DNA from: a virus
Virus record (IMG/VR): IMGVR_UViG_3300036939_000074
Strand: one strand, 5' to 3'
DNA: 64,000 bases
Positions 7,874-45,514 of this stretch are shown one piece after another; positions within the stretch are counted from its first letter, which is position 1, and every line of letters begins with the position of its first letter. The position numbers and the translations under genes were made by a program. The notes under the pieces are model-generated. The model was given only the letters and a program-made list of their open reading frames with translations, did no database searches and had not been told where the DNA came from.

Positions 7874-8269
7874 TTACTTTTTAGGCCATAATATTTTTGC
7901 AGACCAATAAAGGGGCGAAAACTTGTCTTCTAGCGCCCGTTTGCCTCGGCTGGATTTTGTATTGGCAAATCGTTTGTAGAAGTTATCACGCCGATCTTTG
8001 TCTTCGTGAGTCGTAAAGTCGTCCATAGAGTCATCTCCGAAATGAATCAGTGCCACTTCGCCGTCATCAACGGCTAGAACCATCATCTTTTTTCCAGATT
8101 TATTACTTTTGACGGGTTCATCCGGAGTCCACCACTTCCCTAAATATTCAACTTTGCCATCTTTTTTGGGTAGGTCGGCTAGCTTGCGTTTGGCTTGGAT
8201 GAGTCCGGAGGCGGTTAATGCCAGATTAAAAGCGGCTAGTTCAATTTCAATTAGATTTGGGCTGGACAT
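7874..8269 (-). CDS. Leader-bearing small virus-type protein (DUF5754-like by recollection)
   Basis: KKMMV...HFGD..MDDFTTHEDKDRRDNF..RF...SPLYWS..ILW pattern; N-terminal LIEIELAAFNLAL...LIQA leader. Confidence 0.6.
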   Translation of the reverse strand: MSSPNLIEIELAAFNLALTASGLIQAKRKLADLPKKDGKVEYLGKWWTPDEPVKSNKSGKKMMVLAVDDGEVALIHFGDDSMDDFTTHEDKDRRDNFYKRFANTKSSRGKRALEDKFSPLYWSAKILWPKK

Positions 8270-8301
8270 GGGAAACGATTAGATGTTTCTTCTCGATCTT
8301 G

Positions 8302-8316
8302 GCGCACTAAGTGCGC
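8302..8316. repeat. Dispersed palindrome GCGCACTAAGTGCGC, copy 2
   Basis: Exact match, about 33 bp upstream of the 8269 start. Confidence 0.9.
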
Positions 8317-8365
8317 CATATGCAAAATCCCCTGATCGCCGCAAAGCAACCAGGGGGTTTTCGCA

Positions 8366-8686
8366 TTAATCGCCGTTCTGACGGCGATTCTGCCAGAGGT
8401 CTTCCTCTGAGGAGGGATCGTCTTCTACTAAACCGGAGTCAAAGATTTCACGATGCGCCTCTTCAAGCGCCTCTTTGTAGCTGACTAGCCAGTGGCTGGT
8501 CAGCTTGTCCAGCTCTATTAAAAGCTGGTAGATCTTCCTTAAGATTTGCCAGGGGGTGTTACGGACAAATCGGGAAGAGGTTGTGATTCGTTTAAGTTGC
8601 CTTACTGCTGAGCTGATGGCTTTCAGCTCTTCAATAACATGAGGCTCCTTTTTTACTTCTTTGATCCAGTTGTAAAGTTGTTGCAT
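8366..8686 (-). CDS. Hypothetical protein
   Basis: 106-aa helical ORF followed by a hairpin at about 8328-8363. Confidence 0.55.
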   Translation of the reverse strand: MQQLYNWIKEVKKEPHVIEELKAISSAVRQLKRITTSSRFVRNTPWQILRKIYQLLIELDKLTSHWLVSYKEALEEAHREIFDSGLVEDDPSSEEDLWQNRRQNGD

Positions 8687-8783
8687 ACAATCCCTCTGAT
8701 GTAAGTGGCGGGGGTTCCCGCAAACAAAGGGTAGTTGAGGGGTTTTACCCTATGTTTTCTGTCGCTCCCCCATCGCAACGTCA

Positions 8784-11450: not shown

Positions 11451-11726
11451 TTACTCAAATTCAGCCTGGATAGGCTCAAGATAAGGAGAGATAAGATTGT
11501 AGGTAAAAGCTAATAAAAAGCTGGTGAGAGCGCCGCCGAAAAGACCTGTAAAAAGGAAGGTCATCAGATATTTCAGTAAAAATGCGGCGAAGATTTCGAG
11601 GGTAAAACCGAGATTTGCGATGGTGGTTATCGCGGCGATGGGGAGGGCTAGCCAGAATAAGAAAGTATTTAAAGCAATACCGTACCTAGCTGCCGAAAGA
11701 CAGTTAAAGGATTTGATATTTTTCAT
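11451..11726 (-). CDS. Two-helix membrane protein, family B copy 1
   Basis: MKNIKSF-C...YG-A-NTF...YN-LS-YLEPIQAE shared by three genes. Confidence 0.8.
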   Translation of the reverse strand: MKNIKSFNCLSAARYGIALNTFLFWLALPIAAITTIANLGFTLEIFAAFLLKYLMTFLFTGLFGGALTSFLLAFTYNLISPYLEPIQAEFE

Positions 11727-11881: not shown

Positions 11882-12181
11882 TTAGGAAAGAAGTGTTTCT
11901 TCGGTCTCTTCAAGTTCAGCCTGAATCGGCTCAAGATAAGGAGAAAGAAAGTTGTAGGTCAGGCCAAACAGGAAGCCTTCAAGAGCGCCACCGAAGATAC
12001 CCGAAAACATGAAGGTCAGCGAGTATTGCAGTAAGAATGCATTGAAGCTTGCCGCATCATGGTTAAGGCTATTGAAAGCGATGATAGCAGCAAAGGGAAA
12101 GGCCAAAATCAGGAAGAAGGTATTTAAAGCAATACCGTACTTGGCTGTTGAAATACAGTCGAACGATTTGATATTTTTCAT
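11882..12181 (-). CDS. Two-helix membrane protein, family B copy 2
   Basis: Paralog of 11451 and 13528. Confidence 0.8.
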   Translation of the reverse strand: MKNIKSFDCISTAKYGIALNTFFLILAFPFAAIIAFNSLNHDAASFNAFLLQYSLTFMFSGIFGGALEGFLFGLTYNFLSPYLEPIQAELEETEETLLS

Positions 12182-12299: not shown

Positions 12300-13346
12300 T
12301 TACTCCAGAAACTTAGAAATTTGAGTGTCTATAACCTTATTGATATCCCCAGTGTTTAATTTACTTAATCTATCTTTGATGCGGTTGATTTTTTCAAGGG
12401 TCAGCTCAAGCCCTGACTTGACTTTTTTTTCAGCTTTGGCTTGAGTTTTCTTGGCTTTTGGTTTTTTCTTATCTGAATAAACTAATTTTTGACTTTGGGG
12501 TGCCTTTAAAACTTTGGGGATTTTCCCCGTATTCTCTGTAATGGTCTCCGGCTTTTTCGGTGGTTTTTTATCCGAACCGGGGGCGGTTAAGGTTGCCGGG
12601 ACTTTGGTACCAGTGGCATAGTCGATGTCTTCTTGGGTTTGCTTCAGGAGCCGGGAGATTTCATCACTAGAGTCTTCATTAGCCTCTAGTCGTGCGACTT
12701 GATAATCAGCAACAGCGGTAGCAATTCTTTCGGCTACTTTTTTCAGTCCCTCGTACTGGCCTTTGAGAAAACTTTTCTCTTCGGTAACAGCTGTTCGGGC
12801 TGTCTCTTTACCTTTATCAACAATGTCGCTGACATCCTTGATATCCTCCCCGGTGTCTTTCTCAGCCAGAAACTCTAAGGTGGAGAGCATCGCTCCGCTA
12901 ACCAGGGCAGCGCTATCTTCGAGAAGTTCTTTGCCGTTTTGGACGATTTGAGAAATTCTCTGACTCGGAGGGGTCTTGTCGTCCAATTTCCCAACTAGAT
13001 CGGAATTTTTGAAGGCTTTATCTAACTTACTGAGGACTTCCGATTCACTCTTGGTGACAGCTGCCGTTAGCTCTTCTTCTATGCGTGATTTTAGGGCTTT
13101 TCCTTCCGGAGTATCAGCCTTGACAGCCTTGACGGCTTCTAAAACCTTGCTGTAATCAGAGGATGAAGTAGCTGCCGGGGTGGTTCCGCCACCTCCAGGC
13201 GATGCAAATTGTCCACCGGGTCCACGATTAACCGTGACTGTGCGCCCGTCCACTTCGTGCGTAGTTTCAAAGCTGCCAGCCGCTTGGACTTTAATAGCTA
13301 GAGCCAGGGCGTCGGCTTCGACTTGAATAATGTGAACGTTGGGCAT
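12300..13346 (-). CDS. Leader-family protein 1 (charged coiled-coil C-terminus)
   Basis: N-term ADALALAIKVQAAGSFETTHEVDGRTVTVNRGPGGQFASP shared with 36812 and 43751. Confidence 0.75.
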   Translation of the reverse strand: MPNVHIIQVEADALALAIKVQAAGSFETTHEVDGRTVTVNRGPGGQFASPGGGGTTPAATSSSDYSKVLEAVKAVKADTPEGKALKSRIEEELTAAVTKSESEVLSKLDKAFKNSDLVGKLDDKTPPSQRISQIVQNGKELLEDSAALVSGAMLSTLEFLAEKDTGEDIKDVSDIVDKGKETARTAVTEEKSFLKGQYEGLKKVAERIATAVADYQVARLEANEDSSDEISRLLKQTQEDIDYATGTKVPATLTAPGSDKKPPKKPETITENTGKIPKVLKAPQSQKLVYSDKKKPKAKKTQAKAEKKVKSGLELTLEKINRIKDRLSKLNTGDINKVIDTQISKFLE

Positions 13347-13376: not shown

Positions 13377-13391
13377 GCGCACTAAGTGCGC
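13377..13391. repeat. Dispersed palindrome GCGCACTAAGTGCGC, copy 3
   Basis: Exact match, about 31 bp upstream of the 13346 start. Confidence 0.9.
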
Positions 13392-13527: not shown

Positions 13528-13803
13528 TTACTCAAATTCAGCCTGAATCGGCTCAAGGTAAGTAGAAAGAAAGTTGTAAGTAAAACCGAACAAATAGCCC
13601 TGAAGAGCGCCACCGATAATACCGGCGAAAAGATAGGTTTCCAAATAGTTCAGCAAAAATGCAAGGATGGTGTCGGATGTAAAACCGAGATTGCTAATCG
13701 TGATAATGGCTCCAATAGGGAAGGCCAAAGCCAGGAGGAAGGTATTGAAAGCCATACCGTACTTTGCTGCTAAACGGCAGTCAAAGGATTTAATATTTTT
13801 CAT
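13528..13803 (-). CDS. Two-helix membrane protein, family B copy 3
   Basis: Paralog; start MKNIK at 13803. Confidence 0.8.
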   Translation of the reverse strand: MKNIKSFDCRLAAKYGMAFNTFLLALAFPIGAIITISNLGFTSDTILAFLLNYLETYLFAGIIGGALQGYLFGFTYNFLSTYLEPIQAEFE

Positions 13804-13872
13804 GGTTGCAATGCTTGAAAATGAGGGGGTTGTTAAAAGCGGGTGAAGCAAGTTTTTTTGTTCAATACCTTG

Positions 13873-13901
13873 ATTGTACATTAGTTTTTCTAATGTGACA
13901 A
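13873..13901 (-). promoter_or_regulatory. sigma70-like promoter with palindromic spacer
   Basis: TTGTCA-cattagaaaaactaatg-TACAAT. Confidence 0.7.
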
Positions 13902-14191: not shown

Positions 14192-17100
14192 TCAAGAGAA
14201 AACATCTTCCAAACTGTTCACCACTTCAAGTAGTTGCAATTGAGATTGATGCCAAAGGATGAACCATTCAAAAGTTTTGCTGTGGCTGCACTCCAGGCAT
14301 TGCATTCTCAGAAGTCGCACGGCTTGAGCGAGGAAGATATCCGTAATCCAGGGAGGGGGGGGGAGGGTTTTAATCCACTCAATCACGGTTTCATCAACAC
14401 CTGTGTAGATGGCGGGGGTTGGCGCTTCAACAATGCCCCCTGGTTCCCACGCCTCTTGTTCATCCTCCTTGGAGTCTAACTGGCTTCGCAGCTCTAACTC
14501 TTTGGCGGTTAGGGCGCTGACTTCATCCCCTAGTTTGCTGACTTCGCTGGTGAGGTAGGTAATGCGTTCTGGTAGTAACCGTTGATGTTCTCGTTCAGCA
14601 TCGATCTTCTTGCTTAATCGGTCAACTTCGTACCCGTGACGAACCTCCCGGAGAGTGGTGCGGATGGCGTTGATGAACTTCTCACTAAATACCCAACTCA
14701 GCGAGACGGGATAAAAGATGCGGTAGGTTTGCTCGTTGTGGGTGTACGGAACTCCGGCGAGGTCAAGGCTCTCAATACTCTTACCACTGAAAAAGCTCAC
14801 CACAATGTCTAAGCCCGCAATTTGACCAATTTTTTTATGTTGGCAACGCTTACCGGCTTTGATGATGGCGTTGATTTTCCCCTGGAGGACAATATCCGCC
14901 TCTTGCACTTTGGTGGTGAGGGTTTTGCCGATTTGGATTGAGAAGGTGTCTCCGGTGAGGGAGCCGTGTTCTTTTACGGTTTCTTGGTCTACTTGGCTAG
15001 CTTTGTATTTGGCTTCTAGAACACCCAATACAGAGCCGCAACTCTCTGAGTAGTAGCGGTATTGGGAGAGGCGGGTTTGCTGTTCTTTGAAGGTGTGGTT
15101 TTTTTGCCGCAGCTGGTCTTTAACTTGGGCATATTCCAGCGCTGCTGTATTGCCGCTCATGATGGCGGCGGCCACGAGATAATACGAAGCGTCATCGCCG
15201 ATATCTTGGGTGCGACGGGATTCAAGCTTGCCGCTGGCATACTGGTGAGCCATGGCAGCGCGGTGCCGCACAAGATTGGCTTTCCAAGCGTCGAACCCAG
15301 GCTGATTGCCAGCCCCTAAAGTCCCGTAGTCAAAAGCCCAAACATCGTCGTGGGGGTTCCCCTGTCGGACAACTCGCCCTAATCTCTGCAATGGGGGTGA
15401 CCAATCTAAATCGAGGAGATGAGCGGCGATCGCTCCGCCATACCAAGTGTTTCGGACGCCTTGTGCATTCACACCCGTACCTCCGCGACGTGTCGAAGCG
15501 AGCAGCATCGCGGTTTCACCATTATTCATCTTATCAAACAATTTCTGTTTTGTCTTGGCATCGTACTCGTGGATAAAGGCGACTTCTGTTTCCGGAACTC
15601 CCAATGCAACCATGCAATCTCGGATGTACCGATAAACCGTGAATCGGTTATGAGGTTTGGGTACCCCACTGTTACAAAATATGAATTGAGTCGCCTTAGT
15701 TTCTCGCGTGGCCTGCCATACCCACCACGCATTGTGGATCAAGCGATGTAGCTTCGTATCGCACTCAACAGTTTCCACCTCTTTAACGAGCCGGGGGTCA
15801 ATGGACGCGGCTGAACCCATGCTGGTTAGGGTGAGAGGGTTATGGTTTGTCCAGTTGCCAGTTTTTGGGTGGACGTATTTCGGGGGCCTGCGCTTCTGCC
15901 ATGCTTTCAGCCAGTTTTTGATGTCTTCGTTGATGGCCGCTTGCTCGTCGGATAAGGGGGAGGTGATGGTGTAGCGGTGCAGTTGGGGGCGCTTGATTCC
16001 AACTTTTTCCGGGTCAGGGGCGAAGTCGGTAAAAGTGGCCGCTAAATCTAACATCTCGTCTTGGTTTTTGAAGCCACTGATTCGAGTTTTCTTCTTAATC
16101 CCACCCATACTCGTAAATTCTGGCTGGGTGGAAATTTCCCCAAAGTTACCAATGAAGCTATCGAAGTGGGCGTTACCCGTTTCTTCTATCTCATCAGGGG
16201 CAAAGAGCCTCAATAAGTTGAACATCTCACTAAAACTGACTTCTGGAAATAAGCCCGTTCCACCCCCAATTCTGCCACCGTTTCTCAACGTCCAATTGAA
16301 TTTCAATAGGGAGTTGAGAGAGCGTTGAGTGTCTGTATTGGTAATACCTGAAATGGTTCCGGCAATCTTACTGGGGTAGCGGATGTTCTTCAACATTTGA
16401 AGTTCATCAAAGCAGATGAGGGGCCTTTTTGCAATGTCTTCCCAGTTTAAAGCGATGGAATTGCGGCAATAATGACTAACGGCTTTTTCCAAAGAGCGTT
16501 TTAGGACTTTGATGGTTTTATCGCGCTCTTTTTCTCCCATTAGTTTAACGTATTCGTCGCGAGTTAGTCGTTGCTGTTTAGGCACAAATTTAACTTGCCC
16601 ACTATTACTCACTCGAATTGCCCCTTTATCCAACAAGTCATCCATGACTGGCATCATGGATTGGGGGTCATTCCCCGCGTCTTCAATCGCGCCAATGACT
16701 TCTAGGCGCTCAATTTCTTGGCGCAAGGAGTGGGCGTGAGCAAGCAGGTCTCCGTGGAGTAAAGACTCTTTTGTTGCATCAACTTCTTGCAAGTAACCTT
16801 CAATGACCGACAGTTCTTCAGAGATGTATTGAACCTTCGTCCGCCACCCAATGGGGATGCCATAGAAGGCAGTGTGAGCCAAGATGATGCAGTCATAATT
16901 TCCGGTTTGGCAGCGCCGTAATGTGGCGTTGCGAGTTTGTGCCCCCCCATCTTCGGCAATTAATAGTTTAGCCTTGGGATAAAGGGTTTTAAATTGCCCG
17001 ACAAACTGGGAGACGGTATCGTTGAGGACAGAGATAAATGCCTTGTCAACTAACCCTAATCGCTTGCATTCCATTGCAACGGCACAGTAAACAAAGGTTT

Positions 17101-19591
17101 TGCCGTAGCCTACGGGATGCAATAGGAAAAGCCGACGTTCTTGGATGCCACGAGCGATCGCATTTTTCTGATGCGGCTTGAGTTGGATGGCTGAGTTGCT
17201 TCCGGGTAGCTTCAAGTAACTTCCGTCATACTGAGGGCGTAAAGGGCGGGGATAGATGCTGTTGTAAATCAGCGTCAAACGTAGGGCGCGTTCTGCATCT
17301 AGCCACAGCCACTTTTTAAACTCTTCCTTGAGTCGTTCGAGGGCAGAGTTGGCCGTAACCGTTGCCGCTTCAGATGCCTCTACGTCAATTGCATCATCAT
17401 CGTAAATTTTGATACGGAATGGCGTCATGTTCAGCGCCGCTTCCAATACCTGCAAGGCATTTTTCCCGCCTCGCTTGCCCTCAGCTCCTGTACTGGAGAA
17501 TTCCGATTTTTGGGCATATTCTTTAGGGCCATCAACACCCCACCGGGCCAGTTCCGGAATGTGCTCAACCTTATATTGACTCGCTCTGCCTCCAAATTTG
17601 TCACTACAGAACTGTTGGATATCGGAGGTTGGAATCCAAGAGGCACCAGCACCCGCGTCAATGAAGATTTCAGCATCTAGCTCACTATCAATATCCAACT
17701 TTTGTTTGAGGCCAGAAGCAATTGAAGCGCGGATTTCGGCTGTGGCTGGCGGTAAGATGAAAGAAGATATGTAAACATAGTGCCCGTCCTCATTCTTTGT
17801 AGTGAGGACTTTTTCGTTGTCGAACAACCACTTTTCGAGATACAGTTCTCCGTCTGTTTCTGCCAGTTGACGCACGGTGCGAAGTTTGGCACGAGTGTCG
17901 CCGGATAGGTATTGATATCGAGAAACCCATTCCCCTAAATCGGGGTCAAAAAAGATTTCAGAATTTTTACCCTTGAGTAGACCAATGGCGTCTTTTTCAG
18001 AGCATTCCAACAGGACAGCGATGAAGGGTAAATCAATGCGGCCACGACGGCTCAATGATTCGTGAACCGCGTCTGTTGGGACACTAATTTTTAGTGTTCC
18101 TTCTTGGCGCATGGGCGCATTAACCCGGGACGTGAGTATTTCAGCGGGTTTATACTCCCAGGTTTTTGAACCCGTCTCCGACTCGAAGCAAATTTCTTCT
18201 TCTAGCGCGCAGCAGGTTGCAACCAACTCGGAGTCGTCGGCAAATACCTTTAAGGTGCTGGGACGCTTGCGGCGGTTGAGTAAGTTGCCATACTTTTTCA
18301 CAAACAGATTGTACTGCGTCACCAGTTGGGCACGCCGCTCTTCCATATCTTCTCGGTCGTTGAGTTCGGCATCCACAAGGCTATCGAGAGCGTTTTTGAG
18401 TTCAATACCTGCGGTGATGCGCTCGGCATGTTCTGTGATATGAATGAGGCCGACGCCTCGCTGATACTGGTAGAGTTTCCCTTCTTTCAGTAGAAAGCTA
18501 CCCGGATTAAGACCAATGCAACTTTCGGGTAGGAGAACTTCTTTGAGGGCAGGGCGCTGGAAGTTGGGCAGTTCGTAAATCAGGTTGAGTTTGGCAAAGG
18601 CATTAATAATGGCAGCTTTGATATCAACCTGTTTATCCCCCGCGACGGCGATGCGGGAGTTTCCATACAGCTGGGAGTGGGACCAGGTGCCCAAAACCTT
18701 ATCGGGATTTTCGATAAAGTAACGGTTGACGCACAAGGGTTCATCATTTTCGTCGAGTATGGGAGTGGCAACCACATCTAACCAGTTGGGGTTGGGTTCT
18801 GGGGAATGGGGGCATTTCTGTAAAATGATTAAATCTGCCGTGACTTGTGTGCCAGCTTCTGCAAGCGCGGTATTGGGCAGTCTCACCGCTCCCACCAGAC
18901 GAGCGCCCTGGGCGTGGAGGTATTTGGGGAACTCAGAATCCAAGGTACCAATACTCGTAATCAGAGCCATCAGTCCACCCGATCGCAGTTTATCAAGCGA
19001 CTTAGCGAAGAAATAATTATGAAGTGTGCTGCTGGGGATGTCTTCATAATCCGGGTCGAAGGGAGGCACGAGACCAAACGGGACGTTGCCAATTACCAGA
19101 TCAAAGGTACTATTCGGGATGTCTGTAGATTCAAATCCACAGCCATAAATTGCGATCGCATCGTCAATGAGGATTTTTGCGATCGCAGAGGCGGATGAAT
19201 CGATTTCGACCAAGCACCATTCTGAGCGCGCACGGTTCCAAGTTGTCTGCAAGCCGGGGAAGAGGCCGATATTGCTTGAAGGTTCCAGGATGCGACCGTA
19301 GGAGAAGCCCAGCTGTTCTAAGACATGCCACATCGCTTCTACGATGGGGGCGGGGGTAAGGAAAGCGTTATCGCTATTGAGGTCAAGATCGGGAACCAGC
19401 TCTAAAACTTCTTTATTAATGGCAGACGCTACCGTTCCCCAACCGACCCATTTAGCTAGCAAGTCCTGATCAGCTGCGGTGATGGGGTGGGGATTTTTTT
19501 TGTAGCGACGCAGCCATTTTAAGCAAGCGATGTTGTTGTTTAGCTTAGTTTTGACCCCGCCTTTAACAGGGAGATTACGGAATTGGTACAT
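14192..19591 (-). CDS. DarB-like N6-adenine methyltransferase / SNF2-type helicase fusion
   Basis: LAKWVGWG, ILEPSSNIGLF (motif I), DLVIGNVPFG (motif IV), HPVGYGKT (Walker A), CFDELQ (DExx), QRLGRVVRQGN (motif VI). Confidence 0.85.
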   Translation of the reverse strand: MYQFRNLPVKGGVKTKLNNNIACLKWLRRYKKNPHPITAADQDLLAKWVGWGTVASAINKEVLELVPDLDLNSDNAFLTPAPIVEAMWHVLEQLGFSYGRILEPSSNIGLFPGLQTTWNRARSEWCLVEIDSSASAIAKILIDDAIAIYGCGFESTDIPNSTFDLVIGNVPFGLVPPFDPDYEDIPSSTLHNYFFAKSLDKLRSGGLMALITSIGTLDSEFPKYLHAQGARLVGAVRLPNTALAEAGTQVTADLIILQKCPHSPEPNPNWLDVVATPILDENDEPLCVNRYFIENPDKVLGTWSHSQLYGNSRIAVAGDKQVDIKAAIINAFAKLNLIYELPNFQRPALKEVLLPESCIGLNPGSFLLKEGKLYQYQRGVGLIHITEHAERITAGIELKNALDSLVDAELNDREDMEERRAQLVTQYNLFVKKYGNLLNRRKRPSTLKVFADDSELVATCCALEEEICFESETGSKTWEYKPAEILTSRVNAPMRQEGTLKISVPTDAVHESLSRRGRIDLPFIAVLLECSEKDAIGLLKGKNSEIFFDPDLGEWVSRYQYLSGDTRAKLRTVRQLAETDGELYLEKWLFDNEKVLTTKNEDGHYVYISSFILPPATAEIRASIASGLKQKLDIDSELDAEIFIDAGAGASWIPTSDIQQFCSDKFGGRASQYKVEHIPELARWGVDGPKEYAQKSEFSSTGAEGKRGGKNALQVLEAALNMTPFRIKIYDDDAIDVEASEAATVTANSALERLKEEFKKWLWLDAERALRLTLIYNSIYPRPLRPQYDGSYLKLPGSNSAIQLKPHQKNAIARGIQERRLFLLHPVGYGKTFVYCAVAMECKRLGLVDKAFISVLNDTVSQFVGQFKTLYPKAKLLIAEDGGAQTRNATLRRCQTGNYDCIILAHTAFYGIPIGWRTKVQYISEELSVIEGYLQEVDATKESLLHGDLLAHAHSLRQEIERLEVIGAIEDAGNDPQSMMPVMDDLLDKGAIRVSNSGQVKFVPKQQRLTRDEYVKLMGEKERDKTIKVLKRSLEKAVSHYCRNSIALNWEDIAKRPLICFDELQMLKNIRYPSKIAGTISGITNTDTQRSLNSLLKFNWTLRNGGRIGGGTGLFPEVSFSEMFNLLRLFAPDEIEETGNAHFDSFIGNFGEISTQPEFTSMGGIKKKTRISGFKNQDEMLDLAATFTDFAPDPEKVGIKRPQLHRYTITSPLSDEQAAINEDIKNWLKAWQKRRPPKYVHPKTGNWTNHNPLTLTSMGSAASIDPRLVKEVETVECDTKLHRLIHNAWWVWQATRETKATQFIFCNSGVPKPHNRFTVYRYIRDCMVALGVPETEVAFIHEYDAKTKQKLFDKMNNGETAMLLASTRRGGTGVNAQGVRNTWYGGAIAAHLLDLDWSPPLQRLGRVVRQGNPHDDVWAFDYGTLGAGNQPGFDAWKANLVRHRAAMAHQYASGKLESRRTQDIGDDASYYLVAAAIMSGNTAALEYAQVKDQLRQKNHTFKEQQTRLSQYRYYSESCGSVLGVLEAKYKASQVDQETVKEHGSLTGDTFSIQIGKTLTTKVQEADIVLQGKINAIIKAGKRCQHKKIGQIAGLDIVVSFFSGKSIESLDLAGVPYTHNEQTYRIFYPVSLSWVFSEKFINAIRTTLREVRHGYEVDRLSKKIDAEREHQRLLPERITYLTSEVSKLGDEVSALTAKELELRSQLDSKEDEQEAWEPGGIVEAPTPAIYTGVDETVIEWIKTLPPPPWITDIFLAQAVRLLRMQCLECSHSKTFEWFILWHQSQLQLLEVVNSLEDVFS

Positions 19592-23232: not shown

Positions 23233-23664
23233 CTAGCTTTCTTGATAAGGCAAGAAATTTCTGCCTCTTACCCATTGGGGTGGCTTGATCGCTAGGTTGA
23301 CCACGCTTTCAATACCTCGAATGCTTGGGTCGCCAGCCAAGTAGCCTATGCCACGATTAAGGTGCGCCAAAAACTGCTCGGCTAAAACCTCGTCGTTGAC
23401 GGGCAAGCCATCTTCTTTCACCCGCTGTCTAAGTGCCAGGATGAAAAGGTCACTAAAGTTGCCACCGAACGTTTTCCAGGCAATTTCTAAATTGCTGTCA
23501 GCTGGGTACCTCGTCGGGCTGGGTTTCGTCGCTTCTGCGAGTGAGAGACAAAATGCCCATCGACAAGTGATGTTGTAACTGGGGATTTTGGTGCGTCGCT
23601 TGATGGTGATTAGGTTGTAGCGCGCCTTCTCACTCAATCGGATGCGTTCAACGGGGGCTTGCAT
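23233..23664 (-). CDS. dndE: DNA phosphorothioation protein DndE (orphan)
   Basis: ERIRLSEKA..L..IKRRTKI..YNI-CRWAFCLSLAE...PADSNLEIAWKTFGG...FLAHLNRGIGYLAG, closely matching cyanobacterial DndE; start MQAP at 23664. Confidence 0.9.
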   Translation of the reverse strand: MQAPVERIRLSEKARYNLITIKRRTKIPSYNITCRWAFCLSLAEATKPSPTRYPADSNLEIAWKTFGGNFSDLFILALRQRVKEDGLPVNDEVLAEQFLAHLNRGIGYLAGDPSIRGIESVVNLAIKPPQWVRGRNFLPYQES

Positions 23665-36811: not shown

Positions 36812-37900
36812 ATGTGCGATTCAGAGATCATTCAAATCCATGCTGACGCCCTGGCGCTGGCGATTAAAATCCAGGCAGCTGGCAGCAACTTTGAAACGAC
36901 ACATGAGGTGGATGGCCGCAAAATTACCGTTACCCGTGGCCCTGGGGGACAGTTTGCCTCGTCTCCCGATAACTCGGGTGGTAGCAGTGATGCTGTTAAG
37001 ACTCAATCACAAAACTTCGGCGCTAGCGTGGCAAAAACGCTTGGATTGGATAAGGCCGCAGCGGCGATCGCTAAACTACCCAAAGATGCGAAAGCGGGGT
37101 TTGACAGAATTCTGACTGATAATCCTATCGTCCAAGACGTTTCCAATAAACTCGTTGGGGAAACTAAGGACGGGTTTGACGCCGGTAATAAGCTAGCCAA
37201 AGACCTTAAAGGCACTGACTGGAAACAAATCCCCAAAAAATTTACCGATGGGGTGGCAGCCTTAGCCGAAGATATCAAGAAGAACAAGCAGGATTACCTT
37301 GTAGGGCTAGCCCTAGCTGGGGCGATGACTTTTGGCGTTGCTAGTGCGCTGAGTGCTGGTACTTTAGCTCAAGCTCTCCCTGGCGTTATTGGCGCTGCCG
37401 TAGAAACGGGAGATCTTACCGCTGTCGGATTACACCTACTTCAGTTGTTCGGTAAAGGCATGTGGGCGGCAATAGTAGGGCTTATCGTTGTTCCCCTGAT
37501 GGGGCAGGTTGTTATTGCAAAGGCATTCGGTGTCGCGCCACCGGAGAAGACGCCTGAAGAGCAAAAAGTTGAGGAGGAGAAGGCCAAGAAGAAAGCTGAG
37601 AGGGCTGCCCGACTTGCTGAGGCGACCGCTAGAGCAGTGGCTAGAGAGCAGCAAGACCCCACGGAGAGAAAGCTTGGTTACATGGGGATTGACATCGACT
37701 CACTGAAAAAAGCCCAAGAAAAAGCCAGTGAACAAGTCGTACAACAGCTTAAGGAAGAGATAAAAAACGCGGAAGCGGCTTGGACGAGCTACATGGATTC
37801 GGTGGGAGAAGCTGTCCCTCCAGAAAAGGCAGAACAAATGCGGAAGGAATTAAAATTGCACGTCAATCAAATTAGAGAATTAATTAGACAGAAAGATTGA
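36812..37900 (+). CDS. Leader-family protein 2 (hydrophobic central segment, coiled-coil tail)
   Basis: ADALALAIKIQAAGSNFETTHEVDGRKITVTRGPGGQFASSP; Ala/Gly-rich hydrophobic helices. Confidence 0.75.
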   Translation: MCDSEIIQIHADALALAIKIQAAGSNFETTHEVDGRKITVTRGPGGQFASSPDNSGGSSDAVKTQSQNFGASVAKTLGLDKAAAAIAKLPKDAKAGFDRILTDNPIVQDVSNKLVGETKDGFDAGNKLAKDLKGTDWKQIPKKFTDGVAALAEDIKKNKQDYLVGLALAGAMTFGVASALSAGTLAQALPGVIGAAVETGDLTAVGLHLLQLFGKGMWAAIVGLIVVPLMGQVVIAKAFGVAPPEKTPEEQKVEEEKAKKKAERAARLAEATARAVAREQQDPTERKLGYMGIDIDSLKKAQEKASEQVVQQLKEEIKNAEAAWTSYMDSVGEAVPPEKAEQMRKELKLHVNQIRELIRQKD

Positions 37901-37915: not shown

Positions 37916-39352
37916 ATGCTAATTACTTCCACTACCTTTTCTCGACAACGCATTAAGAGGCTCTCCGCTTTGCTCATATGTGCCCTAGCTAGTTCCCTTG
38001 TTAAAGGTGGGATATTTGACCAGCGCGTTACCTTGCTCCGTAATCAAATTAATTCTGTACACCAAGAAATCGTTAGCTTGGAGAAGCTTTCAAAAGCTGT
38101 TCGGTTAGCTGAATTTAATGAGATGGCCGCTGTTTTAGCAAGAGGTCGTTATGTTGATGAATATTTTGTGGATTATTACAAAGCGAAGGAGTCAGCCAAC
38201 TTAGAGATTGAATTCCTTTCTCGTACACTTGATACCCGTAAACTCAAGGCAGAACTTAATTCAAGGTTTACTGAGTTAGACAAAACAATTCAGCTCTTAA
38301 AACTAAAAAGAGATAAGGCAACACTCGATAACCTGACGACAAATAATCGCCTTTTATCAATGAAGCGGATAGTCGGTCATATAAACCAAATCGAAGCCCG
38401 ATCTTATTACAAACAGAACATTTTAACTCAAAAACTCAATCGCAATTTATGGTTGAGATACATCCTGTGGGTATTAACTTTAGTTTTTGCTGCCTCATCT
38501 TTTAGTTATGCGGCTTTTCTTCTATTAGCAACAAGGCGAGAACGATTAAAAACTCTAAAAACCCTACAGCTTAAAACGAGTGAGCAGGAAGAAAAGCTAC
38601 ATCAATTACAAGAAGAATCCCAAAAAACACATGCTGAGACCATGGCTCGGTTGCAAAGCAGCGAGGATAAGGAAGCTTTAAAAAATGTCATCCTTTCTAC
38701 TTTTTTGCACGACTCTCGTACCTATCTGGCTATTGTTAGAAGTTCAGCCGAGATTATGGAGGAATACGAAGGGAAGTTGAATTTACAGCAAAAAGAGAGG
38801 CATTACGGCAAAATTCATCGAGCTGTCGATTCATTATTGAGCTTAACAGATAATTCTCTACTGTTACTAAAAGACACAGATGCCAAGGTCAACACGTACT
38901 CCTTGGATTTAAGGCTTTTTTGTGAAGAGGAAATCGATAAATGGTGCCTTTTATGTAAAGGGACAGGACGAACTTTTAAATTTGAACAAAGTGGCATGGA
39001 ACGCCCTGTCATAACGAGTAAAATGCTTCTGACTCGTATGTTCGACAATTTGGTCGGAAATGCGATCAAGTATTCGGACCAAGAAATTGTGATTCGCCTA
39101 GATTTCACGAATCCCTCTCAAGTTGTACTTTCTGTAATTGATGCAGGTCCCGGAATTAAAGAGACCGAATTGCAGGGAATCTTCGATACTTGTATTCGCG
39201 GCAGCAACTCTGGGAGTGCGTCTGGCTTTGGGATTGGCCTTGCCAGTGTAAAAAGAGCAGCCCAAGTCTTGGAGCTTGGGCTGGATGTGTGGAGTGAAGA
39301 GGGGGTGGGAAGTGAATTTAGGATTATTTTTCGGGAGCCTCTAACTCCTTGA
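37916..39352 (+). CDS. Membrane sensor histidine kinase (orphan)
   Basis: Two TM segments; H-box FLHDSRTYL; NLVGNAIKYS, VIDAGPGI, GFGIGL. Confidence 0.9.
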   Translation: MLITSTTFSRQRIKRLSALLICALASSLVKGGIFDQRVTLLRNQINSVHQEIVSLEKLSKAVRLAEFNEMAAVLARGRYVDEYFVDYYKAKESANLEIEFLSRTLDTRKLKAELNSRFTELDKTIQLLKLKRDKATLDNLTTNNRLLSMKRIVGHINQIEARSYYKQNILTQKLNRNLWLRYILWVLTLVFAASSFSYAAFLLLATRRERLKTLKTLQLKTSEQEEKLHQLQEESQKTHAETMARLQSSEDKEALKNVILSTFLHDSRTYLAIVRSSAEIMEEYEGKLNLQQKERHYGKIHRAVDSLLSLTDNSLLLLKDTDAKVNTYSLDLRLFCEEEIDKWCLLCKGTGRTFKFEQSGMERPVITSKMLLTRMFDNLVGNAIKYSDQEIVIRLDFTNPSQVVLSVIDAGPGIKETELQGIFDTCIRGSNSGSASGFGIGLASVKRAAQVLELGLDVWSEEGVGSEFRIIFREPLTP

Positions 39353-41813: not shown

Positions 41814-42611
41814 TTAAACTTGGCTTGTTACTGGAATTTGCTCGCTGCCAACGATGAGGTCACTGCGCTTGAGCCAGAGAACGAAAACTTTGCCGAATCC
41901 TTGTTCGGCTACATTCCACCCGTCAATATCGTTGGTATTGACTTCTTGAAGTTCATAATCTGCTATGATTTCCGCTTCCACCAAGCTACGACAACGTTGG
42001 GCTGTGTCTTGGCGAATTAATTCCCAAAACATTTCGACGGGGCCGGCGAGATTTTTATAGTGATAGTAAATAGCGAGTTTAATGGAAGTGCTTAAAATTG
42101 ATTGAGCCAAAGACCGGAGTGAGTCAGCATCTAACGGTTTACAGGTTGGCTCCCCAACCCCAGGACGGCGATAGCCAGACAAACTCGCAGGCGCATCAAT
42201 TTCTAAGTAGCTAGGGATTTCATCTACATCGCCGTTGTAGTTCTGATACAGCCATTTCAAGAACGGCTCATATAACGGGCCTACCCAAATCCGATGTTTC
42301 TCCAGTTCGTACTCGCAACCATCCCGATTGAGGACAGGGAAAATAGCACCTTCTCCAGTTTGGAGGTCGAAAACCCAAAGCCATTTTTTCACGTCATCCC
42401 AATATCCAATTTTTGCCAACAATGGAGAATTGCTTACCATTGAGATGTACGAAGTTTCGTCTTCGTCGAACTGAGCGACAATAAATTTTCCCCAATTAAC
42501 GAGTTGTGGTTGGCAAACTTCAACGATTTTTGATCTCATGATGCGCTCGAATGTGACTCTTGATGGCAATAATACTGGACAAGAGAAAATAAGTGACGCA
42601 TCAATAGACAA
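41814..42611 (-). CDS. Hypothetical protein (tandem paralog of 42666)
   Basis: NWGKF...WVFDLQTGEGAIFP...IWV-PLYEPFL-WLY; true start may be 42539. Confidence 0.75.
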   Translation of the reverse strand: MSIDASLIFSCPVLLPSRVTFERIMRSKIVEVCQPQLVNWGKFIVAQFDEDETSYISMVSNSPLLAKIGYWDDVKKWLWVFDLQTGEGAIFPVLNRDGCEYELEKHRIWVGPLYEPFLKWLYQNYNGDVDEIPSYLEIDAPASLSGYRRPGVGEPTCKPLDADSLRSLAQSILSTSIKLAIYYHYKNLAGPVEMFWELIRQDTAQRCRSLVEAEIIADYELQEVNTNDIDGWNVAEQGFGKVFVLWLKRSDLIVGSEQIPVTSQV

Positions 42612-42665
42612 AACACCCGATTATTATAAATGCGCGAACATTTTAAATATTGTTTCGTTCAGGCT

Positions 42666-43430
42666 TCACCCCGTTACAGAACTCGGCTCACTGTCAGCAG
42701 TGAAGCCGTTAGCTGTGAGCCGGAGGATAAAAATCTTACCAAATCTTTGAGTATTGTAGGCTTGCTCTTCAAGAAGAGTGTAGTTTGCGATCACTCTCTC
42801 TTCCACCAGCTGGCGGCAACGAACGGCAACCTCTTGGCGAATCAACTCCCAAAACACTTCCAAGGAGACAGCAACATCCTTTTTATAGCGTTTTTCAAGA
42901 ACAAATTTGATGGAGATATTTAGAATTGCCTGAGCCAATGCGCGGAGTGACTCCATATCCAACGGTTTACTGGTGAGTTCCCCAATTCCAGGACGACGAT
43001 AGCCATGCAGACTTGCAGGCACATCAATTTCTAAGTAATTAGGGATGTCATCTACATCGCCGTTGTAGTTTCGGTACAACCATTCTAGGAACGGCTCATA
43101 TAAGGGGCAAACCCAAATCTGATGTTTCTCTAGGTCGTACTGGCAACCACCTCGATTGAGGACAGGGAAAATTGCACCTTCTCCGGTTTGGAGGTCAAAA
43201 ACCCAAAGCCATGTTCTTAGATCCCCCCAATATCCAATTTCTGCCAGTAAGGGAAAATTACTGACAGCTGAGATGTGTGAGGCTTCCTGTTCGTCAAATT
43301 GAGCAATGATAAACTTGCCCCAGTTCACGGGCTGCGGTTGGCAAACTTCAACAATTTTTGACTTCATAATGCGTTGGATGTAGCTATACGGCAATGGTAC
43401 TGGACAAGGGAGATTCATAGACAAAAACAC
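42666..43430 (-). CDS. Hypothetical protein (tandem paralog of 41814)
   Basis: Highly similar over the first about 150 aa; true start may be 43367. Confidence 0.75.
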   Translation of the reverse strand: MFLSMNLPCPVPLPYSYIQRIMKSKIVEVCQPQPVNWGKFIIAQFDEQEASHISAVSNFPLLAEIGYWGDLRTWLWVFDLQTGEGAIFPVLNRGGCQYDLEKHQIWVCPLYEPFLEWLYRNYNGDVDDIPNYLEIDVPASLHGYRRPGIGELTSKPLDMESLRALAQAILNISIKFVLEKRYKKDVAVSLEVFWELIRQEVAVRCRQLVEERVIANYTLLEEQAYNTQRFGKIFILRLTANGFTADSEPSSVTG

Positions 43431-43455
43431 CCGTTCTCAAGAGAGCGGGTGTTTT
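43424..43455 (-). terminator. Intrinsic terminator
   Basis: aaaacacccg...cgggtgtttt. Confidence 0.6.
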
Positions 43456-43750
43456 CATTACTTATTGTCTTAAAATGATTCTTTCAAAAAGAGATATTCT
43501 TTGGTTTCTGTAGCCAGGTGAGGCAGCGCTGGCTCTAGGGCGTCGGTTAAATTCTTTAACACCAGTTCTAGGGCTGTTTGACCAGAGCGGCGCTCGTAAC
43601 TATCGGGCGTTCCTCCCATGTCTTCGTAAAATTGATAGAGACGGGCTTTTAATCCAGTCTTTTCCGTTCCAAACCAGTGCGCGGAGGTATTGGATAAATA
43701 TTCACGTAGCTATAGCATTTTTAATGCCTTTGTGACAACAAAAAACTTAA

Positions 43751-45514
43751 TTATTGGTCAAGAGCATATAAGCCAAACAACAGATGGTCACGGTCTTGCT
43801 TGGCTTGCAGACTCAAAGATTGCCAACTGGTTAATGTCTCAGTTGCCGTCGAAATGATTTCAGAATTTCCCTCGTATAATTTAGCGCTATAGGGGCTTCT
43901 AAAATCTGATGGCCGAGCTTTTTCATAATCTCTATAAGCTGGATTGTTGGTCAGATATTTTAGTTGTACCTCTTCATTCGAGATTGCTCTATCTTTTGCG
44001 TAATTATGAGTTATTGCTGAATTATTTAGCTTAACTTCTAATACATGACCTAATTCGTGAAACATTACTGTCTTGGGGTCATGAGCAAAGCCCGTATGAA
44101 TAAAAGATTCTCCAGCTCCAGGTATATTAAAAAAATTGTCTTGATAACCTCTGTTTTGACCAATATCCTTCGTGGGGTCATCTGGTGCGACAAAACCCAC
44201 CCGCACATCTAATTCTTGCTTGGTCAATCTACCAAATAGTTGAGCAGCTTCCGTACAGTCTTGAACTCGCTGAACTACTTTTGGGTCTTCTGTTTCTAGA
44301 TGCTTCCCTGCTTTTTTAAGTAATAGAAACTCAATATATCTACTTTCAAACGGACTAAGTTGACGAATCTCAGATTCTGATTTTCCTTTATCGATCAACG
44401 AAATCACCGCTTGATACTCACGTTCTACTTTTTGTGAGTTTTTAAAATCCACTGATTCTAGTAATTGATCGATAGCAGCCCCGTAACGGAGTTCACTCTT
44501 AATAACCCCCTCGTGCCACCCAATCGAATCCTTGTCATCTTTAGATTTTTTGGGGTTTTGACGTAATGCCGTGAGTTCTAGAACCCGCTCCCTTAAAGCG
44601 TGTTTATTAAATGCTTCCCGGTTAGCCATTTGTCGATTAAGCGCTTGCCGCACAGCATCCGGGTCTATTTTTGATGTTTTAAGGGCTTCAGCCACTTTTT
44701 CGGCTAACTTAGAGCTAACTCCAAGACTCAAACTGATGGCTTTTTGAGTTGGAGTTTCCTCAGCGGCGGGAGTTTCCATCTCGTTAATTTGTTGCTCTAA
44801 CTCTTGGCTGATTTTTTTGAATCGATCGTCTTGTGTTCCCGTTTCGGCGAGCTTATCGAATAGAGCTTTTATCCGATTGGCTCCGTGGTACGCTCCGATG
44901 ACTCCTAAAGCCGCACTTCCGGCTACAAGTACCCTTAATCCTGCAAGCTCAGCTGGAGCTGAACTCAGAACTATTGCCCCTAAAACAGCGATCGCAGATT
45001 CTTCGGCAAGTGCTCCAGCAAATTTCGCTGCCGATAATGGGTCAATCGCCGCGCCCTTGGCTACATCTGGAAATTTTTTAACGGTTTGGGCGATGTCATT
45101 AGTAGCCCATTTCAATTTCATTTCCGATTGGGTTACGACATCAGGCAGGGAAGATGCAGCAGAACGATAAGCATCCCCAGCACCCTTGCCCAATAATTTT
45201 TCTAACTGCGACGCGAGATTGTTATTAAAGTCTGTAACGGGTTTGGATTGCAATGCACTCTTAAGTTTTGAGGCATTTTCGCTGATGACCTTATTAACTG
45301 AGTTCTGTAAATCCTCAACCTGACTGACGAAGTTATTCTTGGGTGATTCGGTTGTACCAGGGGATGCAAACTGCCCTCCAGGCCCCCGGGTCACCGTAAT
45401 ATCTTTGCCATCTCCAGTTTTGTGCTGCGTCTCAAAACTGCCGTTGTGTTTCTGGGCTTGCACCAGGAGCGCCAGCTTTAGAGCTTCTGCACATACTCGA
45501 ACCTGGTCACTCAT
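43751..45514 (-). CDS. Leader-family protein 3 with C-terminal HExxH zinc-metallopeptidase-like domain
   Basis: AEALKLALLVQAQ...FETQH...ITVTRGPGGQFASPG; VMFHELGHVLE; SPYSAKLYEG-SEIIS. Confidence 0.75.
   Translation of the reverse strand: MSDQVRVCAEALKLALLVQAQKHNGSFETQHKTGDGKDITVTRGPGGQFASPGTTESPKNNFVSQVEDLQNSVNKVISENASKLKSALQSKPVTDFNNNLASQLEKLLGKGAGDAYRSAASSLPDVVTQSEMKLKWATNDIAQTVKKFPDVAKGAAIDPLSAAKFAGALAEESAIAVLGAIVLSSAPAELAGLRVLVAGSAALGVIGAYHGANRIKALFDKLAETGTQDDRFKKISQELEQQINEMETPAAEETPTQKAISLSLGVSSKLAEKVAEALKTSKIDPDAVRQALNRQMANREAFNKHALRERVLELTALRQNPKKSKDDKDSIGWHEGVIKSELRYGAAIDQLLESVDFKNSQKVEREYQAVISLIDKGKSESEIRQLSPFESRYIEFLLLKKAGKHLETEDPKVVQRVQDCTEAAQLFGRLTKQELDVRVGFVAPDDPTKDIGQNRGYQDNFFNIPGAGESFIHTGFAHDPKTVMFHELGHVLEVKLNNSAITHNYAKDRAISNEEVQLKYLTNNPAYRDYEKARPSDFRSPYSAKLYEGNSEIISTATETLTSWQSLSLQAKQDRDHLLFGLYALDQ

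What the first reader, a model, noticed from the sequence alone, without database searches (positions are those of the whole stretch)
7874..45514. Four scattered genes share an N-terminal leader fused to unrelated C-termini: candidate capsid-targeted polymorphic payloads
Seen: 12300-13346, 36812-37900 and 43751-45514 begin with A(D/E)AL-LA---QA(A/Q)...FET-H...(V/I)TV-RGPGGQFAS. 7874-8269 has a shorter, related IEIELAAFNLAL...LIQA leader. Downstream parts differ completely: charged coiled coil, hydrophobic helices, HExxH peptidase-like, small virus-type domain. The three minus-strand members each lie 31-42 bp downstream of the GCGCACTAAGTGCGC palindrome. Established: T4 internal proteins use a cleaved capsid-targeting propeptide, and P1 packages Dar proteins. 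Inference: a modular system for loading diverse effectors into the head and injecting them on infection.
Basis: partly seen in the sequence, partly recalled or inferred. Interest (0 to 1): 0.8.

Follow-up and report, generated by a model that had tools for sequence, protein, structure and literature searches.

The report
Shared N-terminal module on phage proteins
Three proteins of an uncultured cyanobacterial phage-plasmid begin with the same ~50-residue module; it is most likely a common handle that loads them into the phage head, but this is untested and the set is a small, conserved family, not a shuffling effector system.

Summary
Three ORFs (12300-13346-, 36812-37900+, 43751-45514-) share a ~50-aa N-terminal module: helix, beta-hairpin, R-G-P-G-G-Q-F-A-S, then a Gly/Ser/Pro linker. 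My HMM scores them at E about 1e-27. The fourth ORF (7874-8269) is not a member (E 1.4).

The family is very rare: about 10 clusters among 1.84 billion proteins, none in isolated phages or plasmids. The element is a phage-plasmid (HK97-type capsid protein, protease-scaffold, tail fibre, DarB-like giant protein, ParA/ParB).

In four distant relatives, two-member sets or a single diverged homologue lie within a few genes of the capsid/protease genes or next to the terminase. The 587-aa member ends in an intact HExxH peptidase domain like that of the P1 head protein DdrB. Two members also share a hydrophobic Gly/Ala hairpin at the same offset.

Best reading (about 0.5): head-internal or ejected proteins that share one incorporation module, comparable to the T4 capsid-targeting sequence or the P1 Dar system. 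"Polymorphic payloads" is not supported, because each body type has conserved orthologues. The palindrome is general intergenic punctuation, not leader-specific. Packaging and cleavage remain untested.

This scan has noted shared N-terminal tags on other (mostly jumbo) phages before; those are short tags, whereas this is a longer folded module.

The parts
13200..13346 (-). Leader module of protein A (aa 1-49): helix, beta-hairpin, RGPGGQFAS
12300..13199 (-). Body of protein A (348 aa in all). Gly/Ser/Thr linker, then a highly charged helical region with no hydrophobic segment. The last ~100 aa are lysine-rich (net +14).
36812..36961 (+). Leader module of protein B (aa 1-50). The ATG at 36812 is the start used by the orthologues.
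36962..37900 (+). Body of protein B (362 aa in all). Linker, helical region, Gly/Ala-rich hydrophobic hairpin (aa 162-243 = nt 37295-37540), then a charged coiled-coil-like tail.
45362..45514 (-). Leader module of protein C (aa 1-51)
44888..45022 (-). Hydrophobic Gly/Ala-rich segment of protein C (aa 165-209), at the same offset from the leader as in B
43754..44287 (-). C-terminal zincin-like metallopeptidase domain of protein C (aa ~410-587). HELGH is at aa 486-490 (nt 44045-44059). The candidate third zinc ligand lies in S-E-I-I-S, aa 551-555 (nt 43850-43864).
45583..45939 (-). 118-aa gene next to protein C. Homologues sit beside the C-type gene in L002, L008 and L017, so it is a candidate partner (chaperone or inhibitor).
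14192..19591 (-). DarB-like methyltransferase-helicase (1799 aa), upstream of protein A on the same strand. It has no leader module.
7874..8269 (-). 131-aa DUF5754 protein. It is not a leader-family member, but it is homologous to a segment of large phage 'minor head protein and DNA pilot' proteins.
13377..13391 (.). Palindrome copy 30 bp upstream of the protein A start; one of 7 copies in the window
45556..45570 (.). Palindrome copy 41 bp upstream of the protein C start and 12 bp after the stop of the 118-aa gene
57393..58607 (-). Major capsid protein (HK97 fold, SU10-like). It defines the element as a tailed phage.
58641..60503 (-). Prohead protease-scaffold fusion (620 aa). It is the candidate docking and processing partner of the leader module.

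Best explanation
Proteins A, B and C are internal virion proteins of a novel cyanobacterial phage-plasmid lineage. They are built into the head during assembly and probably leave with the DNA at infection.

Proposed roles of the parts:
- The shared N-terminal module (amphipathic helix, beta-hairpin, R-x-P-x-G-x-F-A-S) is their common incorporation determinant. It docks each protein onto a procapsid component such as the scaffold/protease core or the portal.
- The flexible Gly/Ser/Pro linker after the module separates it from the body and is the most likely place for proteolytic removal.
- B and C would insert their hydrophobic hairpins into the host envelope, in the manner of ejection proteins.
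- C carries an active DdrB-type zinc peptidase that processes itself, its paralogues or a host target.
- A would bind DNA through its lysine-rich tail.

Shown:
- The module, its strict N-terminal position and its linker.
- Purifying selection on the module.
- The phage context.
- Head-module synteny in relatives.
- The DdrB-like peptidase with intact motifs.
- The shared hydrophobic segment in B and C.

Inferred:
- Presence in virions.
- The docking partner.
- Cleavage.
- Ejection.
- The roles of the three bodies.
For: 1. The module is real and always at the extreme N-terminus, in 16 sequences. It is followed in all of them by a Gly/Ser/Thr/Pro-rich stretch.
2. Synonymous divergence is near saturation while the peptide is conserved.
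3. The element is a tailed phage:
   - The capsid protein scores 0.98 in the Atlas and TM 0.71 against SU10_MCP clusters.
   - There is a tail-fibre PHROG match.
   - There is a protease-scaffold family with invariant His and Ser.
4. Leader-family genes lie beside head or packaging genes in four distant relatives:
   - L010 (Richelia MAG): a B-type gene lies immediately upstream of protease-scaffold and MCP, a C-type gene lies three genes after MCP, and Phage_portal is nearby.
   - L018: two leader genes lie three genes after MCP.
   - L017: a C-type orthologue lies inside the head module.
   - L008: two leader genes lie next to the terminase.
5. The C-terminal domain of C matches the P1 DdrB metallopeptidase. 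hhalign gives probability 87.7%, E 3.4e-6, with HExxH and the downstream Glu aligned. Six other P1 head proteins give only noise.
   - The Atlas model matches DdrB-like and 'minor capsid protein' clusters at TM 0.63-0.71.
   - AFDB rows include 'large polyvalent protein-associated domain' and 'phage head morphogenesis'.
   - DdrB is a P1 head protein that is processed before packaging (PMC5512222; PMC9024508).
6. A DarB-like protein is encoded two genes upstream of A (phrog_10089 E 1.9e-215; BLASTP to P1 DarB E 1e-20).
7. B and C have hydrophobic hairpins at the same offset from the leader, as ejection proteins often do.
8. [quoted passage not shown]
Against: - There is no direct evidence that any of the three is in virions, and no proteome or isolate exists for this lineage.
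- In the window itself the three genes are scattered and none is in the head module.
- B is co-oriented with a histidine-kinase-like gene next to parAB, which could mean expression in the plasmid state.
- No cleavage motif shared with the capsid or scaffold proteins was identified.
- The xQA motif is absent from distant members.
- The most conserved part (hairpin plus RxPxGxFAS) is more elaborate than known clipped-off tags, so it may be a permanent structural domain.
- The module has no detectable relative of known function by sequence or fold.
- The DarB-like protein, the most obvious cargo, lacks the module.
Confidence: 0.5

Rival explanations
1. The module is a permanent assembly domain and not a targeting leader. 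Through it A, B and C bind each other, or a tail or portal component, to form one hetero-oligomeric machine such as an internal core or ejectosome like T7 gp14/15/16. It is not cleaved.
For: The module is about 50 aa with predicted secondary structure: helix 2-22 and hairpin 27-43, pLDDT 70. Its strongest conservation is in the hairpin and the RxPxGxFAS motif, not at a putative cut site. Each genome carries a fixed small set of 2-3 members. B and C share architecture beyond the module.
Against: A flexible Gly/Ser/Pro linker directly after the module is typical of a separable tag. The module alone is predicted with only moderate confidence, and within the full-length protein poorly (pLDDT 31-53). 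No oligomer test was possible.
Confidence: 0.2
2. This is ordinary divergent paralogy. One ancestral virion or membrane protein duplicated, and the N-terminus is simply the slowest-evolving part. It has no special sorting role.
For: B and C share a hydrophobic segment at the same offset. BLASTP through intermediate sequences extends B-C similarity to about 230-290 residues. The family is small, and each body type has orthologues.
Against: A has no detectable similarity to B or C beyond the module. The contrast between about 50 near-invariant residues and unalignable bodies, with a sharp boundary at a linker, suggests a distinct functional unit. The module keeps E-values of 1e-13 to 1e-24 in relatives whose bodies are 24-30% identical.
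Confidence: 0.12
3. A, B and C act in the host cell, not in the virion. They would be membrane-associated proteins of the plasmid-prophage (superinfection exclusion, lysis control or signalling), with the module as a common cytoplasmic interaction domain.
For: B and C have transmembrane-like hairpins. B lies 16 bp upstream of a co-oriented HATPase_c histidine-kinase-like gene beside parAB. A is flanked by three small paralogous membrane-protein genes.
Against: Leader genes lie in the head modules of L010, L017 and L018. C has a DdrB-type peptidase of the kind found in packaged proteins. A has no hydrophobic segment.
Confidence: 0.1
4. The module is a secretion or export signal of a polymorphic-toxin-like system that uses a host secretion pathway.
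For: The layout of a conserved N-terminus with variable C-termini resembles polymorphic toxins. A small gene adjacent to C could be an immunity gene.
Against: The helix contains acidic residues and has no positively charged n-region, so it is not a Sec or Tat signal (sequence). There are no toxin domains in Pfam, and no secretion-system genes are nearby. The bodies are conserved orthologues and not swapped cassettes. All contexts are phage.
Confidence: 0.03

Closest known systems
Capsid-targeting sequence (CTS) of phage T4 internal proteins IPI, IPII, IPIII and Alt (PMC3012670)
   Same: Otherwise dissimilar proteins of one phage share an N-terminal element. In T4 that element directs them into the scaffolding core of the prohead.
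   Different: The T4 CTS is about 10 residues long and ends at the gp21 protease motif. Here the element is about 50 residues with predicted helix and hairpin plus a linker. No protease motif was identified, there are only three bearers, and the capsid and protease types are different (HK97/SU10-like, protease-scaffold fusion). Function is untested.
Phage P1 Dar (defence against restriction) head proteins: DarB, DdrB, DarA, Hdf, DdrA, Ulx (PMC9024508; PMC5512222)
   Same: A DarB-like methyltransferase-helicase is present. Protein C has a DdrB-like C-terminal HExxH peptidase. P1 is also a phage-plasmid. P1 DarB is loaded through its N-terminal 30 residues.
   Different: No DarA, Hdf, DdrA or Ulx homologue was detected among A, B and C. 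P1 Dar proteins have no common N-terminal consensus (PMC9024508), whereas these three do. The DarB-like protein here lacks the module. No similarity to the DdrB-ParB domain was detected: only the C-terminal peptidase region of DdrB aligned.
MuF polymorphic toxins and polyvalent proteins of phages (PMC5576092; PMC5512222)
   Same: A conserved N-terminal virion-association part is joined to differing C-terminal parts. The zincin-like peptidase is the commonest hub domain of such injected proteins.
   Different: There is no MuF domain: Pfam gives no hit and hhalign against Mu F gives probability 0.07%. There are no toxin or immunity cassettes. The bodies are conserved and not polymorphic. The functions are split over separate genes and not fused in one giant protein.
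Ejection (pilot) proteins of short-tailed phages: P22 gp7/gp16/gp20 (PMC8402733) and T7 gp14/gp15/gp16 (own knowledge)
   Same: A fixed set of about three head-internal proteins encoded with the late genes. Some have hydrophobic membrane-inserting segments and one has an enzymatic domain.
   Different: There is no sequence similarity, those proteins do not share an N-terminal module, and the morphology of this phage is unknown.
Encapsulin cargo-loading peptides (own knowledge)
   Same: A short shared terminal element docks diverse cargo to the inside of an HK97-fold shell.
   Different: Encapsulin signals are usually C-terminal and about 10 residues long with a different consensus, and they are not cleaved. 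There is no sequence relation.

Membership tests
T4-type capsid-targeting sequence | N-terminal element shared by otherwise dissimilar proteins of one phage | tested here: met
   Three ORFs match at HMM E about 1e-27 and their bodies are unalignable by BLASTP. The element is about 50 aa, not about 10.
T4-type capsid-targeting sequence | Ends at the prohead-protease cleavage motif that also occurs in the capsid or scaffold proteins | tested here: inconclusive
   No motif common to the leaders, MCP and protease-scaffold was found. [ILV]-Q-A occurs in the close relatives' leaders and several times in the 620-aa protein, but it is not conserved in distant leaders.
T4-type capsid-targeting sequence | Sufficient to load a foreign protein into proheads; bearers are present in virions | not testable with these tools
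   Requires virion proteomics or a leader-reporter packaging assay.
P1 Dar system | DarB-type N6-adenine methyltransferase plus helicase giant protein | tested here: met
   phrog_10089 'DarB-like antirestriction' E 1.9e-215. BLASTP to P1 DarB gives E 1e-20 in the methyltransferase part and collinear weaker pieces.
P1 Dar system | DdrB-type C-terminal zincin-like peptidase | tested here: met
   hhalign of the C family against P1 DdrB residues 859-964: probability 87.7%, E 3.4e-6. Repeated at 85.8%, with six other P1 proteins as negative controls. Atlas DdrB-like clusters match at TM 0.66 and feature score 0.95.
P1 Dar system | DarA/Hdf head-size and loading proteins, DdrA, Ulx | tested here: not met
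   hhalign of the A, B and C families and of the leader against DarA, Hdf, DdrA and Ulx gives probabilities below 1% in every case. Other window ORFs were not tested.
Zincin-like metallopeptidase | HExxH helix plus a downstream Glu as third zinc ligand | tested here: met
   HELGH lies at aa 486-490 and S-E-I-I-S at 551-555. The equivalent motifs are HELTH, HETGH and HEVGH in P0010, P0017 and L017, and they align with the same motifs of DdrB. The fold was only partly checked, against M48/M78/M10 clusters at TM 0.34-0.38.
MuF / SPP1 gp7 head morphogenesis family | PF04233 Phage_Mu_F domain | tested here: not met
   No Pfam hit at E<=1. hhalign against Mu F gives probability 0.07%. Structural rows naming MuF proteins probably reflect a peptidase domain fused to MuF in those entries.
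Polymorphic toxin system | Hypervariable C-terminal toxin domains with cognate immunity genes behind one conserved N-terminus | tested here: not met
   There are only three body types, each with orthologues at 24-97% identity, and no toxin domains.
Phage ejection proteins (functional class) | Encoded with head/late genes; hydrophobic membrane-inserting segments; present in the virion and released with the DNA | tested here: inconclusive
   Head-module synteny holds in L010, L017 and L018. Hydrophobic hairpins are present in B and C but not in A. Presence in the virion is not testable here.

The most novel reading that the evidence does not exclude
The ~50-residue module is a portable head-loading domain, a new type of capsid-targeting signal for HK97/SU10-like capsids with a protease-scaffold fusion. 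It is shared by all members of a Dar-like injected set and is removed at the Gly/Ser/Pro linker by the DdrB-type peptidase carried by member C itself, not by the prohead protease. This would give the first case in which Dar-type head proteins have a recognisable common address and their own dedicated processing enzyme. It would also give a tag for loading foreign proteins into cyanophage heads.
Probability: 0.2. Interest if true: 0.65.

Novelty: new variant of a known kind. Interest (0 to 1): 0.45.

Why it matters
Head-internal and ejected proteins are the least understood parts of tailed phages. They usually cannot be recognised from sequence. In P1 a common loading signal was looked for and not found (PMC9024508).

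Here a clear, selectable sequence module marks a small set of candidate internal proteins in an uncultured lineage of cyanobacterial phage-plasmids. One of them is tied to the P1 DdrB peptidase, and a DarB-like protein is encoded nearby.

If the module is a loading signal, it would allow such proteins to be predicted in this lineage. It would also make the rules of protein packaging testable in a second, unrelated capsid system, and it would offer a tag for protein delivery into cyanobacteria.

The claim is modest. The family is tiny, the idea of a shared N-terminal address is established, and nothing has been shown experimentally.

Tried and rejected
- Pfam and PHROGs on A, B, C and ten relatives gave no family for the module or for the A and B bodies.
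- Leader or A-protein searches found nothing in INPHARED phages, PLSDB plasmids, IMG/VR, GTDB genomes or JGI metagenome contigs. The only exception was a 13-residue chance match in a gammaproteobacterial MAG.
- MCP and protein C have no relatives among isolated phages.
- Weak multi-repeat hits of the leader profile (P0012, P0014, P0015) are AP2-like or other repeat proteins. I rejected them as chance matches to the hairpin.
- The AF2 model of full-length C had low confidence (pLDDT 56), and Foldseek against the PDB found nothing.
- The leader-only model (pLDDT 70) has no significant neighbour in BFVD or the PDB.
- The Atlas gave nothing for B (best score 0.79).
- Complex prediction of the leader with the 620-aa protease-scaffold returned no verdict (score 0.00). 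This counts neither for nor against binding.
- I compared the leader and the A, B and C bodies with P1 DarA, Hdf, DdrA, Ulx, portal and Pro. All comparisons gave noise.
- Mu F against C gave noise.
- P1 DarB and the window's DarB-like protein show no obvious similarity in their N-terminal 90 residues (by eye only).
- I considered a Sec-signal reading of the helix and rejected it, because the helix contains acidic residues and is followed by a conserved hairpin.
- I considered a resemblance of 'GQFAS' to the Prp-cleaved 'LQFFAS' of Firmicute L27 and phage 80alpha (own knowledge). I left it as an untested idea, and whether the host encodes a Prp protease was not checked.
- Portal and terminase of the window could not be identified. 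The best lead is 25365-26672 against the L010 portal, phmmer E 0.068.

Full report
OBSERVATION

The window encodes three proteins whose first 49-51 residues are clearly homologous:
- A: 12300-13346, minus strand, 348 aa.
- B: 36812-37900, plus strand, 362 aa.
- C: 43751-45514, minus strand, 587 aa.

The module has three parts: an amphipathic helix, a beta-hairpin carrying F-E-T-x-H...D-G...T-V-x-R, and the motif G-P-G-G-Q-F-A-S. In every member a Gly/Ser/Thr/Pro-rich stretch follows.

A profile built from 14 family members finds exactly these three among 679 six-frame ORFs of the window, at E 1e-27 to 1e-28. The next hit has E 0.93.

It carries DUF5754 and matches phrog_220, 'minor head protein and DNA pilot'.

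Between leaders A and B, 20 of 49 codons are identical, 19 differ only synonymously and 10 change the residue. The similarity is therefore old and is kept by selection on the peptide.

BODIES

By BLASTP the three bodies do not match each other. They are not a random assortment, however.
- B and C, and relatives P0011, P0016 and P0020, all carry a Gly/Ala-rich hydrophobic hairpin about 100-150 residues after the module.
- Profile comparison aligns this segment at the same offset in B and C, but weakly: E 3.5e-4, probability 37%.
- A has no hydrophobic segment, is 32% charged, and ends in a lysine-rich tail.
- Each body type has orthologues. A-type relatives are P0001 and P0004. B-type relatives are P0002, P0003, P0006, P0020 and loosely P0016. 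C-type relatives are P0008, P0010, P0013, P0017, P0018 and P0019.

HOW COMMON

- A word-indexed search of 5.8 billion proteins found 6 hits.
- An exhaustive profile search of 1.84 billion cluster representatives found 13 hits at E<=1e-3, of which about 10 are real.
- Isolated phages, PLSDB plasmids, IMG/VR, GTDB species genomes and the JGI contig collection gave nothing.
- The capsid protein and C also have no relatives among isolated phages.

This is a rare, lineage-specific family.

WHAT THE ELEMENT IS

Evidence that the element is a phage-plasmid:
- ORF 57393-58607 is an HK97-fold major capsid protein. Atlas features score 0.98 and structure TM is 0.71 against SU10_MCP clusters.
- ORF 58641-60503 belongs to a family with a conserved central domain bearing invariant His and Ser, followed by a coiled-coil tail. 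This is a prohead protease-scaffold fusion.
- ORF 215-3259 has tail-fibre PHROG matches.
- ORF 14192-19591 is DarB-like (phrog_10089 E 1.9e-215) and collinear with P1 DarB.
- ParA and ParB are present.

Most other ORFs have no Pfam or PHROG family.

CONTEXT IN RELATIVES

This is the strongest indirect evidence.
- L010, from a Richelia MAG, has this gene order: B-type leader protein, protease-scaffold, capsid protein, two small genes, C-type leader protein, a 112-aa gene. A Phage_portal gene is nearby.
- L018 has two leader genes three genes after the capsid gene.
- L017 has a 709-aa C-type orthologue (28% identity over 580 aa to P0010). Its small partner gene sits inside the head module, which is syntenic with window 60519-64000. 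Its N-terminus has diverged beyond the reach of the profile.
- L008, a 120-kb contig, has two leader genes beside the large terminase.

Each genome thus carries 2-3 members. In the distant relatives they lie beside head or packaging genes. Only in the window and its close relative are they dispersed.

THE C-TERMINAL DOMAIN OF C

- It has HELGH at aa 486-490 and a downstream conserved Glu. Both are conserved in distant orthologues.
- Profile comparison with P1 DdrB aligns these motifs to DdrB residues 859-964: probability 87.7%, E 3.4e-6.
- Six other P1 head proteins serve as negative controls and give only noise.
- The Atlas model of residues 320-587 matches 'DdrB-like' and 'minor capsid protein' clusters at TM 0.63-0.71, and smaller zinc-peptidase clusters more weakly.
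- AlphaFold DB rows include 'large polyvalent protein-associated domain' and 'phage head morphogenesis'.
- Mu F itself does not match.
- According to Iyer et al. (PMC5512222), DdrB carries a C-terminal zincin-like peptidase and is processed before being packed into the P1 head, and such peptidases are the main hub of injected polyvalent proteins. DdrB is listed as a head protein in the P1 virion proteome (PMC9024508).

THE MODULE ITSELF

- AlphaFold2 on a 16-sequence alignment predicts a helix at residues 2-22 and a hairpin at 27-32/38-43, with pLDDT 70.
- Within full-length C the module has low confidence.
- It has no significant structural neighbour in BFVD or the PDB.

THE PALINDROME

- GCGCACTAAGTGCGC occurs seven times in one orientation, against 0.06 expected.
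- Copies precede A and C by 30 and 41 bp and the non-member 7874-8269 by 32 bp. B has none, and four copies are elsewhere.
- All seven lie 12-136 bp after a minus-strand stop codon. One lies between convergent genes. None is followed by a T-run.
- The same 15-mer also occurs in the distant phage contig L008, again after the last gene of an operon.

It is general intergenic punctuation: an RNA hairpin or a protein-binding site. It is not a mark of the leader genes.

INTERPRETATION

Best reading (about 0.5). A, B and C are head-internal, probably ejected, proteins. The module is their common incorporation determinant and the linker is a likely processing site. Under this reading:
- B and C would insert into the envelope.
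- C contributes a DdrB-type peptidase.
- A may bind DNA.

The set is small, and two of the three body types (B and C) are conserved across relatives at 24-30% identity.

Rivals:
- A permanent oligomerisation or attachment domain (0.2).
- Plain paralogy with a slowly evolving N-terminus (0.12).
- Host-cell membrane proteins of the plasmid state (0.1). In its favour, B sits beside a kinase-like gene next to parAB.
- A secretion signal (0.03).

A complex prediction of the leader with the protease-scaffold gave no verdict and is not used.

NOVELTY AND SCORE

The concept is known, and this scan has noted shared N-terminal tags in other, mostly jumbo, phages. The differences here are:
- A longer, structured module with a linker.
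- A different capsid and protease system.
- A link to Dar-type proteins in a cyanobacterial phage-plasmid.

I class it as a new variant of a known kind, with interest 0.45.

Noticed in passing
window 45583-45939 (-); L008:12040-12393; L017:6738-7067; L010:11948-12286: A ~110-118-aa protein is encoded directly beside the C-type gene in the window and in three distant relatives (BLASTP E 5e-8 to 3e-5; the L010 match is weak). It is a candidate chaperone or inhibitor of the DdrB-like peptidase.
   Followed up: partly
window 11451-11726, 11882-12181, 13528-13881 (all -): Three paralogous small membrane proteins flank gene A. They share the motif MKNIKSF(D/N)C, which is N-terminal in two copies and internal (aa 27) in the listed 13528-13881 ORF. 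All end in YLEPIQAE(F/L)E, one of them with a short extension. Their function is unknown.
   Followed up: no
window 7315, 8302, 13377, 27189, 31850, 45556, 51433; L008:8527-8541 and 12875-12889: The 15-bp palindrome always lies shortly after a minus-strand stop codon and has no T-run. The identical 15-mer also occurs in a distant phage contig from the same metagenome. It may be a shared RNA-end or processing hairpin, or a host-factor site.
   Followed up: partly
window 58641-60503 (-): The protease-scaffold family has a conserved N-terminal motif, h-x-A-x-G-K-x-L-S-x-x-N. The central domain has invariant His331 and Ser378. In this phage and close relatives the N-terminus carries extra F/L-I-Q-A repeats.
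   Followed up: partly
window 25365-26672 (-): This 435-aa ORF is the top, but weak, phmmer hit of the L010 portal protein (E 0.068) and is similar in size. It is a possible portal. The adjacent 571-aa ORF 23648-25363 is unassigned.
   Followed up: partly
window 37916-39352 (+): A histidine-kinase-like protein lies 16 bp downstream of B. Its orthologue has HATPase_c, and it matches phrog_857 over its full length (E 3.8e-30). The pair is conserved in the related 57.8-kb contig and is convergent with parB.
   Followed up: no
window 41814-42611 and 42666-43430 (-): Tandem paralogues (265 and 254 aa) of unknown function lie between parA and gene C.
   Followed up: no
window 7348-7557 and 7554-7766 (-): Two adjacent paralogous ~70-aa proteins carry paired Cys motifs and look like zinc ribbons.
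   Followed up: no
L008:1-5903 (-): The 120-kb relative encodes a 6096-aa ORF with no Pfam hit, a few kb from its leader genes. It may be a giant polyvalent or virion protein.
   Followed up: no
L004/L006/L007: In related contigs an IS605-family OrfB/TnpB (Cas12f-like) gene lies immediately upstream of the A-type gene. The element is therefore being rearranged by insertion sequences, which may explain why the leader genes are scattered.
   Followed up: no
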